Assembly (NCBI GenBank): GCA_951406725.2
Contig: OX597828.1
Span: forward strand, 68,076,001 to 68,140,000
DNA: 64,000 bases
Source: Octopus vulgaris
Lineage: Eukaryota
Reading direction: 5' to 3'
Of this stretch, positions 24,697 through 42,300 are shown piece by piece. The position numbers and the translations under genes were made by a program. Position 1 is the first letter of the stretch; every line of letters begins with the position of its first letter. The notes below the pieces were generated by a model, which was not told the origin of the DNA, did no database searches, and saw nothing but the letters and a program-made list of their open reading frames with translations.

Positions 24697-25210
24697 ATAA
24701 ATGAAAGGTTTAGTCCACTTTGAACTTTTAAACCCAAACCAAATGATTACAAAGGAAATCTACTGTGAGCAGCTTGAGGGGCTTAAGTCAGCACTAGAAG
24801 AAAAACGTCCATCTTTGGTTTTAAGACAAAAGGTGTTCTTCCATCAGGATATGGCTCAGCCACACACGCCAACGATGACATTCCAAGGGCTGGAGCAGTT
24901 TAAATGGGAAACAATGCCCCACCCACCATATTCGCTAGACATTGCCCCTTCTGATTATCATCTATTCCGCAGTCTTCAAAATTATTTGGATGGAAAAAAT
25001 ATGAATTCTGTAGACGAGAACAGAACAGTACTGGAGGAGTATTTATCATCACAAACGAGTGAATTTTGGAAGAGGGGCCTTGCAAGTCTACCAGATAGAG
25101 CATTGTATAAGATGAAGGAGAGTATATTTTAGATTGAAAAAGAACTTTATCTTAATTTTGAATAATAAAAGTATTATAAAAAAACCGAATTATTTCTGGG
25201 ATGTCCCAAT
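24697..25210 (+). pseudogene. 3' half of mariner (DD34D), same family as 10523-11797
   Basis: FHQDMAQPH...HPPYSLDIAPSDYHLFRSLQN, right TIR gaattatttctgggatgtcccaa|TA. Confidence 0.9.
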
Positions 25211-25577
25211 ATATATATATATATATAAATATATATGCCAATATGTTTTATAGTGTCTCCTTTTTTCATGCTTCATTTATGTAAATTATATTTCTTGTAA
25301 ATTTTCAGAACCAGCCCAAGGATGGTAATAAGCACAAGCATGTATGTATGCACACACACACACACACACACCTATAAATACACATTTTCATACAAACAAA
25401 TATATAACATACCTCTACAGTTTCAGTCAACCAAATTCTGCTGAAAAGGAGTTGGTCAACCAGAGACTGCATTGGAAGATACCCTCCCAAGATGATGTGC
25501 AGCAAGATTGAACCTGGAACACAAGGTTGTGAAGCAAAATTCTTAAGCACACACCTACATTTGCACCAGTGTATATA

Positions 25578-25798
25578 TGTATAAGTTCATCAAAATTTAG
25601 ATTCAGATGAATATGGTACTTAAGTTAAAGGCATCAGAATTTTATATGGTATTATCCATATAAATCAAAAGGGGTGATTATAATCAAAATAAGCAACAAG
25701 GATATCCAAGGTAGAGTAGTACAATTGTTTCATGCTACTTCATTTTATTAAGCACTGTAAGTATTACGTCAGTTTTAAAATGTCGAACAGTCTTCAGC

Positions 25799-25801
<3 letters not shown>
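25578..25801 (-). mobile_element. Penelope-like pLTR fragment, copy 1
   Basis: near-identical to 38927-39150; flanked by microsatellites; carries hammerhead motif. Confidence 0.65.
25716..25801 (-). ncRNA. Putative minimal type I hammerhead ribozyme, copy 1
   Basis: gtgg-CTGAAGA-c-tgtt..loop..agca-t-GAAAC-AATT-GTA-ctac. Confidence 0.6.
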
Positions 25802-25856
<55 letters not shown>

Positions 25857-25860
<4 letters not shown>

Positions 25861-26530
25861 GTATTTGGGCTAAATTTGATGGTTTGCATAAATGGAAAAG
25901 AAAACACAACATCCTATCAAAAAATGTCAGCTCGATTATTGCTGGGAGATAACAATTTATCCAAAGTTGCTGCCCTCACTTTCCAGCACAGCCTCAGGCA
26001 GGTTCCAGAACCTGGCACATGTGTTTCTCACTGTGTCCTTAGGAAGATCTTTGAATACCTTGATCTTGACCATCTGCTTGGCCTTGTTGTTGCACGCATT
26101 GCAGTTGATGTCTTTCTCAACTGCACCCCACACATAGTAATTGCTAGGCCAGAATTACAAGGAATTAGGAGGCCATAAGTTGGGGTTGGTGAACTCATAG
26201 AAATTCTCCAACAATCACTTCTGACTCTTTCCTGAGGTGTGGCAAGGAACCAAATCTTGCTGCTACACATTTAGCCTTCAAGCAGCAACCACCTCCTGCC
26301 AAGGTTTCACTGCAGTCTCCAACAGCTTCAGATTATCACCTGAATTGAGCCTAAGGTTTGTTCAAAGATGTCGGCTGGCATGATGTCACCCTCACTGGGG
26401 ATACACCCAAAGACTATCATCACGGTTTGAGGGAATTTGATTTCCATGATGCATGGGACAACACATGTGTTGTAAGCAAGCCACCTGTTGTTCTCGGTGT
26501 TGTACATCTGGTCCTTCTTTTCATCTGAGA
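25857..26530 (-). pseudogene. Decayed DD37D (maT-type) Tc1/mariner transposase
   Basis: FSDEK, QQD..PCHT, LWPPNS..YYVWGAVEKDIN; 37 residues between second and third catalytic positions; stops present. Confidence 0.8.
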
Positions 26531-38700: not shown

Positions 38701-39291
38701 TAAGTTTATGAAATGATTTGTCATGAAATTAGAATTTTCTTATTATTAAACAAGATTTCATCAAACTATTTCCCTGTCATTTATAGCTTACACACTCCTA
38801 TTTGTTTTCTCCTGTATCAGTGAATATATTCAATATGTTTTGTTGACTGATACACTAAAGAGCTTTTTTTATAAGTACTACCAGAATACTTGAATCTATA
38901 AATTGTATCTTAAATTTACATATATATGTATAAGTTCAGCAAAATTTAGATTCAGATGAATATGGTACTTAAGTCAAAGGCACCAGAATTTCGTATGGTA
39001 TTATCCATATAAATCAAATGGGGTGATTATAATCAAAATAAGCAACAAGGATATCCAAGGTAGTGTAGTACAATTGTTTCATGCTACTTCATTTTATTAA
39101 ACACTGTAAGTATTACATCAGTTTTAAAATGTTGAGCAATCTTCAGCCACCTTTAGAAATTTTCCAATCAATCGGACAATGCACATTCTTATCCATATTT
39201 CATTTGCCAACATCATAAAGGGGGTAGATATACAGACAGAGAGGTTGATTTCATTCTTAAGAACAGGATAGTAGTATATTCACTCTCTGAC

Positions 39292-39341
<50 letters not shown>

Positions 39342-42300
39342 AATATATTTACTCACTAACACACACACACACACGCACATATATATGTATGTAAGTGTCT
39401 GTATATATGTAACCTAATGTATGTTTATATCTATACATGTAATTAATGTGTGTTGTTTGTTTTCTTCTATAGATTTTCATTAGTTACATCAACACTGACA
39501 GACCAAGTTGGATCCGTAAAGATTTCTTGCGAAACAACTATTACTTTGACTGTTCTTGTGCTAATTGTAAAGAAACTAAACGTCTTGTAAGTAACTTTTG
39601 TCTTGTTTATATATATATATACACACAGGGTGTCCATAAAGTCTCTTTACAATTTTAAAATTTTATTACAAAGGCAGTTGACAAGATATCTTGACCAGAT
39701 TTGTTTTATTGTAATAATTGTTTATTAAAGTTTATTACCTGTTCTTTAATATACCTCAATATGGGAACCATTAGTTGCGTGAAGCACATCAAGACGGTTC
39801 TCGATTTCTTGCCATGTTCGCTGTAGGATAGCCTCATCAACAGTGGCAATGGCATTACGAATCCTTTGCTTCAAGTCAGCAATGTCCCGTATCTTTGTTT
39901 GATACACGATATCTTTTAGAAGTCCAAGGGAGTGATATCTGGCGAACGCGGTGGCCATGGAATTGGCCCATCTCTTCCAATCTATCGGTCTGGAAATGTT
40001 TGATTGAGGAACTGACGAACATGCCGTCCCCAATGTGGTGGTGCACCATCTTGCTGGAGGATGATGGTTGGTTGTAAATCAATCAGTTGTGGTGCCACAT
40101 ATTCGGTCAGAAGGTCGAGGTAAACATCTGCAGTAATTGTTGCCACATTGAAGAAAAATGGACCAATTATTCGATTGCACATGATTCCACACCACACATT
40201 CCCTTTTGGACTATCCCGTTGAAGCACCCTAGTCACATGGGGGTGTTCTGATCCCCAGATTCTCACATTGTGTCTGTTTAATTTCCCTGAAACATGAAAA
40301 GTCACCTCATCACTAAAACAAACTCACTTGAGGAATGCTTCATCCTCTATTTATAGGGGTTCAGTGAATCAGTTCCCTTCCATCAACAAAGTATCTGAAA
40401 CACATAAATTTAATATCGATAAAAACTTTAATAAACATTTATTAAAATAAAACAAATCTGGTTAAAATATCTCATCAACTAACTTTGTAATAATTTTTTT
40501 AAATTGTAAAGGGTCTTTATGGACACCCTGTATATCTTTTATCTTTTACTTCTTTTAGTCATTAGACTGTGGCTTTGCTGGGGCACTGCCCTGAAGAATT
40601 TTAGTCAAACGATTCAAACCCCCAGCACTCGTTTCTAGTAAAACTTAGTATTAATTCTTTTGGCCCCTTTTGCTTAGCAACTAAATGACGGGGACACACC
40701 AATGCCAATTGCCAAGAAATGGTGGAGGACAGACACAGACACAAAGTAACATACACACACACATGCACATGTGTAACTGTGTGATAAGAAGCTTGCTTCC
40801 AACCACATGGTTCTGGGTTCAGTCCCACTGCATAGCACCTTGGGCAAGTGATGATAACTATGGTTGTGATTTTTAGAGAGATCATCATCCTGTTACATCT
40901 ATTTTCCTTACTAGCATTGACTAGATGCATCATCACAGTCCAAACCAATTTTTATTCAAAGTCACTGCCTCTCCAAGACAGGTTGGTGAACACATTTTGC
41001 CTGTGCCTTCCGTTTTGGTTTTGTCACAGCTTGATGGCCTCCCTATCACCAACCACTTCACAGAATGTACAGGTTGTATTTTATTGTGGCACCTGCATGA
41101 GAGTTGTTGTCATGCCTTGAACAAGACTGAAGGGTCCTCTCCACTTGATGTCTCTTCCACTTCACAGAGTGTACTGGGTAATATGTTATCATGGCCATCA
41201 ACACTAAGGAGGTTGCCAGGCGGCGAGCTGGCAGAAACGTTAGCACACCGAGCGAAATGTGTAGCTGTATTTCGTCTGCCATTACGTTCTGAGTTCAAAT
41301 TCCGCCGAGGTCGACTTTGCCTTTCATCCTTTCGAGGTTGATAAATTAAGTACCAGTTACGCACTGGGGTCGATGTAATCAACTTAATACATTTGTCTGT
41401 CCTTGTTTGTCCCTTGTGGGTAGTAAAGAAATAGGTTGCCATGTATTCTTTAAAACTCTCAGAGTCCTCACCACCCTGGGACGAGTTGTTCATGAGTTTA
41501 GAGCCTATCTAGTCTTGCTGTAGGATGTTCTGTTATTGGTTTCACATTTTGGCACTAGGCCAGCAAGTTCAGGAGATGGGGGTTAATCGATTACGTTGAC
41601 CCCAGTATATGACTGGTACCTATGTTATCAACCCTGAAAGGATGAAAGGCAAAGTCAACCTTGGTGGAATTTGAGCTCAGAATGTGAAGACAGACGAAAT
41701 GCCACTAAGCATTTTACCCAGCATGCTAACAATTCTGACTTTTCTGAATCATGTTTTGAAGGACATTAGTCTACATGAAAAATCAATCTGAAGCTTCAGC
41801 ATAGTTTCCTATCCCGGAGGAGTAGTATCTCTCCACTATATTCTGCTCTTCATAAATTCAGATAAACTCCATTTTTTTTAATGATTACAACAGATAAAAA
41901 TAATTATAATGAAATAACTTCGTTTATGTTTATTTGTTTTTAAATTTCAATTGTTTTGGAAAGTAAGTGTGGACCTAAGAGTGCAATAATTTCTGATTGA
42001 AGGATCGCAAACAGACCAGTGTCCATTGTCCAAATGTTCAGTGTTCTGGTTTCATTGGAATCAGCTCTAATGATGGTAAGTTGCTATCTACTTTTCACAT
42101 TCGATTTACCAATGTCATGAATATATGTTTCTTTCTTACCCACAAGGGGCTAAACATGGAGGGGATAAACAAGGTCAGACAAACGGATTAAGTCGATGAC
42201 ATCGACCCCAGTGCGTAACTGGTACTTAAATTTATTGACCCCTAATGGATGAAAGGCAAAGTCGACCTCGGCGGAATTTGAACTCAGAACGTAGCAGCAG

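What the first reader, a model, noticed from the sequence alone, without database searches (positions are those of the whole stretch)
25716..25801. Hammerhead ribozyme motif, family 2, copy 1 (minus strand)
Minus strand: gtgg CTGAAGA c tgtt [~50 nt loop] agca t GAAAC AATT GTA ctac. All core nucleotides are present, stem I gtgg/ctac pairs, the cleavage triplet is GUA and loop III is palindromic (AATT). The sequence is unrelated to family 1 but the architecture is the same, including a mismatch at the base of stem II and an enlarged loop II. The ~225 bp repeat sits between microsatellites and ends exactly at stem I. It may be a non-autonomous ribozyme-bearing retroelement (pLTR or retrozyme-like).
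Basis: partly seen in the sequence, partly recalled or inferred. Interest (0 to 1): 0.7.

Follow-up and report, generated by a model that had tools for sequence, protein, structure and literature searches.

The report
Long-armed hammerhead in Hydra-clade retrotransposon
This is the broken-off, mutated tail of a protein-coding Penelope-like jumping gene that carries a predicted self-cutting "hammerhead" RNA, a known pairing, but here one arm is predicted to fold as a 59-base hairpin holding a conserved A(A/T)TAAA that may act as the element's poly(A) signal.

Summary
The motif is real: intact core, cut predicted at 25720/25719, 0 of 100 shuffles. It is not a non-autonomous ~225-bp element. It is the 5'-truncated 3' end of a protein-coding Hydra-clade Penelope-like element (RT + GIY-YIG) inserted in (TA)n; other copies run more than 3 kb further upstream. 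Hammerheads with this U·U base and short stem III are published for the clade.

The 'enlarged loop II' folds as a 59-nt hairpin; published Hydra hammerheads have 12-26 nt there. Across related families, stems I, II, III and the apical helix covary (9 of 19 pairs; covariation score beaten by 0 of 500 shuffles). Inserted copies decay neutrally. All nine families keep AWUAAA inside this arm, 23-26 nt before the cut, and a GU-rich block after it, as in a poly(A) site. Support for that role is modest: no poly(A) tails were seen, and some conserved 6-mer arises in 251 of 600 null simulations.

The genome holds 7,785 exact matches of this lineage. This copy is probably dead, and cleavage is untested. 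This scan noted the same long-armed, AWUAAA-bearing hammerheads earlier on other DNA of this genome. Verdict: new variant of a known kind.

The parts
25572..25801 (-). 5'-truncated 3' end (pseudo-LTR portion plus 'tail') of a Hydra-clade Penelope-like element
   Evidence: 94.8% over 230 nt to window copy 2; 1,793 first-look candidates, 40 scored, 93-96% apart from the self match; continuous with RT/EN in longer copies
25798..25801 (-). Stem I, 5' strand (GUGG)
   Evidence: sequence; covaries across families
25791..25797 (-). Catalytic core CUGAAGA
   Evidence: sequence; invariant except N7 in 11 representatives, most of them picked by a core pattern
25732..25790 (-). Extended stem II (59 nt): basal helix, middle helix, apical hairpin; four substitutions in this copy (25790, 25787, 25768, 25752) weaken it
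   Evidence: predicted -7.7 kcal/mol here versus -12.8 in copy L061; differences from the medoid copy L002; covariation
25744..25749 (-). AAUAAA inside the 3' strand of stem II, candidate polyadenylation signal (function inferred)
   Evidence: AWTAAA in 9 of 9 families, 23-26 nt before the cut; the only shared 6-mer in stem II; 7,131 pattern hits with it against 7,785 for the general pattern
25720..25731 (-). GAAA, stem III with palindromic loop (ACAAUUGU) and cleavage triplet GUA; cut predicted between 25720 and 25719
   Evidence: sequence; self-duplex -6.4 kcal/mol; AAUU/GAUC exchange between families
25716..25719 (-). Stem I, 3' strand (CUAC)
   Evidence: sequence
25691..25698 (-). Invariant UGUUGCUU block about 20 nt after the cut (GU-rich downstream element or RT-binding site; inferred)
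   Evidence: shared by 9 of 9 families; coordinates
25679..25683 (-). First common 3' end of insertions (...UUUUGAU|UAUA), about +40 from the cut; likely RT start site 1
   Evidence: 9 of 30 hits end at query position 124 and 2 at 123
25572..25584 (-). Second common 3' end (...GAACU|UAUA), about +140 from the cut, merging into (TA)n; likely RT start site 2
   Evidence: 11 of 30 hits end at query positions 230-232; sharp end before (TA)n in the loci
25802..25857 (.). (GT)n/(AT)n microsatellite at the truncated 5' junction
38921..39295 (-). Second copy of the same family in the window, about 145 nt longer at the 5' side; hammerhead at 39065-39150
   Evidence: (as L012)

Best explanation
The motif is a type I hammerhead sequence in the 3' end (pseudo-LTR) of a protein-coding Hydra-clade Penelope-like retrotransposon, and this copy is a 5'-truncated, mutated fragment of a parent in which the motif likely self-cleaves at GUA as a dimer. 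Shown: the element anatomy (ATG about 185 nt after the upstream hammerhead in full-length sister copies, RT, CxCX5C linker, GIY-YIG, about 1 kb UTR, hammerhead, two fixed 3' ends at TATA, insertion in (TA)n, 5' truncations and inversions), the invariant core, and covarying stems. Inferred: tandem transcripts bring two hammerheads together through the palindromic stem III and cut slowly or with help from the element's protein. The endonuclease nicks (TA)n, and RT starts internally about 40 or 140 nt downstream of the cut on RNA that is uncut or re-ligated there, which gives truncated pieces like this one. The long stem II is a selected hairpin that also carries AWUAAA, likely the element's poly(A) signal (about 40%). 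This particular copy likely does nothing.
For: Anatomy. Copy L061 carries DKT, GLYRDD, CNCRIRSKC (CxCX5C), CKLC and CIH around E/N and no CCHH. It aligns at 32-39% in four pieces to a full-length homolog, P0003. These match the Hydra-clade definition in PMC8557442 section 11. A sense hammerhead follows the endonuclease in 16 of 30 close loci and 20 of 40 more distant loci. Of 30 loci holding the RT N-terminus, 10 have an inverted and 7 a direct upstream pLTR piece; ATG lies 180-187 nt after the cut in 4 of 6 full-length copies printed.

Selection. In 11 representatives, 90.9% of cells are paired and 9 of 19 pairs change on both sides; 0 of 500 shuffles reach the covariation score and 7 of 500 the pair count; slid controls give 26-49% paired. 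The lineage pattern has 7,785 hits versus 2 for the control. U·U at the base of stem II is in 14 of 26 Hydra rows of File S2 (counted by eye).

Template. Of about 1,424 family 20-mer hits, 6 break at the cut site versus 16 at a control site 12 nt upstream, and the six are rearrangement junctions. This fits an uncut template and internal RT starts, as shown in vitro for an anole PLE (PMC11167929).
Against: No cleavage assay. The full monomer fold is weak in the focal family: stem I pairing probability is 0.07 in this copy, 0.18 in the medoid and 0 in copy 2, against 0.98 in another family. Whole-motif folding z-scores are +1.7, +0.25 and -0.05. The covariation shuffles ignore relatedness, the structure was drawn from these sequences, and most representatives were chosen with a core pattern. 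No full-length, direct-pLTR or intact-ORF copy of the focal family itself was found; the direct pLTRs are in sister families. Pfam gave no RT or GIY-YIG hit and no tree against reference PLE clades was built. For the poly(A) role, no A-tailed loose end showed among the rows printed, and a conserved 6-column block of any kind arose in 251 of 600 null simulations. The two truncation patterns differ in capture rate, so that comparison is rough.
Confidence: 0.8

Rival explanations
1. The hammerhead fold is kept mainly as a scaffold or binding handle for the element's RT/EN protein. Cleavage is marginal or dispensable, and AWUAAA is a protein- or tertiary-contact motif, not a poly(A) signal.
For: Insertions are templated across the cut site. 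In the anole PLE, hammerhead mutants did not affect insertion and no RNA-seq reads ended at the cut (PMC11167929). PLE hammerheads cleave weakly in vitro (PMC4209133). One sister family has two U·U mismatches at the base of stem II. Unrelated long-arm families in the loci mostly lack AWUAAA in the arm.
Against: Every catalytic nucleotide and the cleavable triplet are kept across families only 51-93% alike, with a palindrome preserved by a two-sided change. The hexamer varies only at position 2 (A to U, twice independently) while its pairing partners shift.
Confidence: 0.14
2. A non-autonomous ~225-bp retrozyme-like element that spreads as small circular RNA.
For: A short piece between microsatellites with a type I hammerhead; no RT/EN similarity in the window itself. 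Tandem hammerhead repeats of other families do exist in this genome.
Against: 5' ends are scattered and run into UTR, EN and RT. No head-to-tail short units were seen in the 60 family loci; the extra hits there are inverted or rearranged pieces.
Confidence: 0.04
3. This copy was domesticated by the host (for example a cleaving or poly(A) element in a host transcript), or the motif is a chance match.
For: The core is intact in this copy, and a same-strand partner lies 13 kb away.
Against: Chance is excluded. The copy has 9 differences in 231 nt from the medoid, 4 of them in stem II, in line with neutral decay.
Confidence: 0.02

Closest known systems
Hammerheads in pLTRs of Hydra-clade Penelope-like elements (Craig et al. 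2021, PMC8557442; seen: abstract, passages, sections 3 and 11, supplement search and part 2 of 59 with File S2)
   Same: C-terminal GIY-YIG without CCHH, CxCX5C linker, DKT, (TA)n targeting, 5' inversions, tail; type I hammerhead with 4-bp stem I, frequent U·U at the base of stem II, short self-complementary stem III. The clade includes Hydra-1_Obim from Octopus bimaculoides.
   Different: The stem II span is 57-60 nt here versus 12-26 nt in the 26 Hydra rows (loop 3-10 nt), and AWUAAA lies inside the arm. The 3' UTR is about 1 kb, and the tail about 100 nt versus the 30-40 bp quoted. The listed Hydra-1_oBim hammerhead is a different, short one.
Metazoan PLE hammerheads (Cervera and de la Pena 2014, PMC4209133; seen: parts 1-2 of 4)
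   Same: pLTR location, palindromic helix III, proposed dimer action, covariation between families, decay within genomes.
   Different: Helix II there is 'larger than usual' at 7-8 bp, with a conserved G10.1-C11.1 pair; here it is a three-segment rod and the focal family has U·U.
Poseidon PLE of Anolis carolinensis (Frangieh et al. 2024, PMC11167929; seen: parts 1-2 of 4)
   Same: Two RT start sites defining the tail; unprocessed RNA as template; AT-rich targets.
   Different: Another clade; its ORF starts within the hammerhead, whereas here ATG is about 185 nt after the cut.
Animal non-LTR retrozymes (Cervera and de la Pena 2020, PMC7229834; seen: passages)
   Same: Type I hammerheads with weak helix III; U·U base in axolotl HHR_Amex2; very high copy numbers.
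   Different: Retrozymes are non-coding 150-450 bp tandem repeats; this element codes for RT/EN.
HIV-1 polyA hairpin (PMC2645353; seen: search listing with the start of the abstract only)
   Same: Functional analogy only: AAUAAA held in a hairpin that is present at both ends of a terminally repeated transcript.
   Different: No ribozyme, no homology; a role for the hairpin here is untested.

Membership tests
Type I hammerhead ribozyme | Core CUGANGA, GAAA, NUH | tested here: met
Type I hammerhead ribozyme | Stems I, II and III supported by covariation | tested here: met
   9 of 19 pairs with two-sided change in 11 representatives; controls (relatedness not controlled by the shuffle)
Type I hammerhead ribozyme | Match to an Rfam hammerhead model | tested here: not met
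   no hammerhead family among 36 matches at E<=1; the long stem II likely explains this (inferred)
Type I hammerhead ribozyme | Loop I-loop II tertiary contact | not tested
   no closing stem I extension analysed
Type I hammerhead ribozyme | Self-cleavage | not testable with these tools
   needs an in vitro assay; only contigs were available
Hydra-clade Penelope-like element | Single ORF, RT followed by C-terminal GIY-YIG | tested here: met
   broken ORF of L061 aligned to full-length P0003; domains read by motif, Pfam gave no hit
Hydra-clade Penelope-like element | DKT motif; CxCX5C linker; no CCHH; CxxC and CxH around E and N | tested here: met
   against section 11 of PMC8557442
Hydra-clade Penelope-like element | N-terminal RWK motif | tested here: inconclusive
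   sister families read IRWIT or IRWKT; N-terminus of the focal family not recovered with certainty
Hydra-clade Penelope-like element | (TA)n insertion, pLTR, 5' inversion, tail | tested here: met
   (direct pLTR seen in sister families only)
Hydra-clade Penelope-like element | Placement in an RT phylogeny with reference clades | not tested
   reference proteins not on hand as stored sequences
Non-LTR retrozyme | Non-coding 150-450 bp tandem units | tested here: not met
Cleavage/polyadenylation site | AWUAAA 10-30 nt before the end and a GU-rich element after it (geometry recalled, not from a call) | tested here: met
   9 of 9 families
Cleavage/polyadenylation site | Poly(A)-tailed RNA ends at the site | tested here: inconclusive
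   none among the loose ends printed for contigs of 5 guessed-RNA runs; contigs cannot show ends

The most novel reading that the evidence does not exclude
In this lineage the poly(A) signal has been built into the ribozyme: AWUAAA sits in the extended stem II, so CPSF cleavage and hammerhead cleavage aim at nearly the same bond. Folding of the arm would hide the signal (read-through, template or circle RNA, and no premature stop in the upstream pLTR), while unfolding would give the translated mRNA: a ribozyme/poly(A) switch that sorts mRNA from retrotransposition template.
Probability: 0.3. Interest if true: 0.7.

Novelty: new variant of a known kind. Interest (0 to 1): 0.42.

Why it matters
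The role of hammerheads in Penelope-like elements is stated to be unclear (PMC8557442). A lineage with young, near-identical families, a long covarying arm and an embedded poly(A)-like signal gives simple constructs to test whether cleavage and polyadenylation compete. It also shows that descriptor searches with short stem II miss most hammerhead-like motifs in this genome: about 65,900 core-pattern matches above control, 76% with a stem II span over 38 nt (stems unchecked, bins may double count). The axolotl figure is 126,247 (PMC7229834). The single copy in the finding is an ordinary dead fragment.

Tried and rejected
Rfam: no hammerhead hit; the microRNA hits are microsatellite or inverted-repeat artefacts. 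Pfam: no relevant hit for the ORF pieces or homologs. The homolog search scored only 7,992 candidates and returned 4 proteins.

RNA evidence: no RNA holder on record was listed, only guessed-RNA contigs. Laying 5 of the 24 listed runs showed cover across the cut site and no poly(A) loose end among the printed rows (95 rows not shown). This is no evidence either way.

Enrichment of 5' ends at the cut site: not found. An intron-split start codon was considered and dropped, because ATG is present in frame. Naiad clade was rejected because the endonuclease is C-terminal. AWUAAA as a general feature of Hydra hammerheads: about 8 of 26 File S2 rows have it in the flanks (by eye), near chance for AT-rich DNA.

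Searches had scan bugs, and the focal-versus-medoid list was out of register (redone). Family majority rows used only the 9 clusters with 3 or more copies (122 of 141 copies); 19 copies in 16 small clusters were left out. Lünse et al. (PMC5785218) is not held and was seen only as cited in PMC6765202; it, its supplements and the unread parts of the Craig supplement may describe long stem II variants.

Full report
Observation. The motif is at the stated place on the minus strand, with an intact core and the cut predicted between 25720 and 25719. The window holds one more copy, at 39065-39150; the strict motif appeared in 0 of 100 shuffles. The two copies share 230 nt at 94.8%. Rfam does not detect the motif.

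What it is part of. The genome (2.8 Gb) gave 1,793 first-look candidates, of which 40 were scored, at 93-96% apart from the self match. It is likely an Octopus species; this is inferred from a homolog labelled Octopus sinensis. The 3' end is sharp and merges into (TA)n, while 5' ends are scattered. Walking upstream led to copies more than 3 kb long. [quoted passage not shown] These are the diagnostic features of the Hydra clade of Penelope-like elements in PMC8557442 (section 11). Pfam did not recognise the domains, so the assignment rests on motifs and on 32-39% alignment to an unnamed full-length homolog. Among 30 loci with the RT N-terminus, 10 have an inverted and 7 a direct upstream pLTR piece. 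In full-length sister copies ATG lies 180-187 nt after the upstream cut in 4 of 6 printed. The finding is therefore a 5'-truncated pLTR fragment, and ending at stem I is incidental.

Is the hammerhead selected? Within the family, no. In 30 copies picked without regard to the hammerhead, the core differs from the majority at 4.9% of cells, the rest of stem II at 5.1% and the tail at 5.4%; 13 of 27 copies have an intact core. Between families, yes. A sense hammerhead follows the endonuclease in 16 of 30 close loci and 20 of 40 distant loci. In 11 representatives, 9 of 19 pairs change on both sides and 90.9% of cells pair, against 26-49% for slid controls; RNAalifold recovers stems I and II and the apical helix. 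Caveats: the shuffle ignores relatedness, the structure was drawn from these sequences, and most representatives were found with a core pattern. A lineage pattern gives 7,785 hits versus 2 for the control; the focal family alone has 1,424 exact 20-mer hits.

The long arm. The 59 nt between CUGAAGA and GAAA fold as an interrupted hairpin: z -2.7 in L061, -1.7 in copy 2 and only -0.6 in this copy, and z -1.1 to -4.3 (mononucleotide shuffles) in nine family majority rows. File S2 of PMC8557442 lists 26 Hydra rows with spans of 12-26 nt; 14 have the same U·U base (by eye), so the mismatch is ordinary for the clade and the length is not. Long stem II has a precedent in spike-moss PLE-X hammerheads, flagged there as deviating. 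Five literature searches listed no paper that, from title and abstract start, describes long-armed cephalopod hammerheads or a poly(A) signal inside one; Lünse et al. could not be read. Genome-wide, the core pattern gives 17,309, 41,025 and 12,042 hits for spans 8-38, 39-69 and 70-100 nt, against controls of 1,542, 1,650 and 1,281 (stems unchecked).

AWUAAA. All 9 families (51-93% alike) keep AAUAAA or AUUAAA 23-26 nt before the cut and UGUUGCUU about 20 nt after it. It is the only 6-mer with at most one two-fold position shared in the arm; position 2 changed A to U twice, and flanking columns changed 1-5 times. The pattern requiring it gives 7,131 hits against 7,785. The geometry matches a cleavage/polyadenylation site (recalled). 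Against: a root AAUAAA stays AWUAAA in only 16 of 3,000 simulations, but some block this conserved appears in 251 of 600, so the support rests on the identity of the motif. Most unrelated long-arm families lack it in the arm, and no A-tails were seen in contigs.

How it likely works. Insertions end about 40 or 140 nt downstream of the cut, at TATA, and run through the hammerhead. There is no excess of 5' ends at the cut (6 versus 16 at a control site). The template is therefore likely uncut or re-ligated, with RT starting internally, as shown for an anole PLE whose hammerhead cleaved only with the element's protein (PMC11167929). The 8-nt palindrome can self-pair (-6.4 kcal/mol), in line with the dimer model (PMC4209133; PMC6765202 passages). 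This copy has four substitutions in the arm and a stem I pairing probability of 0.07, and no ORF nearby, so it is probably inert.

Earlier notes. After forming this reading I looked up the scan's notes. Several follow-ups on other DNA of this genome reached the same view, including the embedded hexamer. They are unchecked AI notes and are not counted as support.

Verdict. A real hammerhead motif in a known setting, with an unusually long, conserved stem II and a testable poly(A)-signal idea. New variant of a known kind; interest 0.42.

Noticed in passing
The MIR8562 Rfam hit is its inverted-repeat junction.
   Followed up: partly
G000 genome-wide: About 65,900 type I core-pattern matches above control, 76% with a stem II span over 38 nt, from many unrelated families.
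   Followed up: partly
G000:C1:10836774-10838643 and C1:5011305-5012441: Head-to-tail hammerhead repeats at about 594-nt and 534-nt spacing, retrozyme-like, from other families.
   Followed up: no
L153, L098, L118 family (cluster c1): A very young sister family (98% identity, many identical motifs) with the most stable predicted hammerhead fold; the best candidate for assays.
   Followed up: partly
L148, L150 family (cluster c21): A sister family whose majority row has two U·U mismatches at the base of stem II, which would likely weaken cleavage.
   Followed up: no
L061, L064, L084 ORFs: A long asparagine-rich low-complexity stretch between RT and the CxCX5C linker, also present in homolog P0004.
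   Followed up: no
window 24701-25129 (+), about 25900-26400 (-), about 39660-39900 (-): Decayed Tc1/mariner-like transposase pieces (label recalled from motifs, not from a call) lie next to both hammerhead copies.
   Followed up: no
L062 3627-4670 and 5261-9900 (oriented minus frames): A 348-aa open mariner-like transposase frame and a LINE-like element lie in or beside a long copy of the family (labels recalled).
   Followed up: no
window, repeat families D2, D5, D7, D9, D10: Many dispersed SINE-like repeats at 60-95% identity.
   Followed up: no
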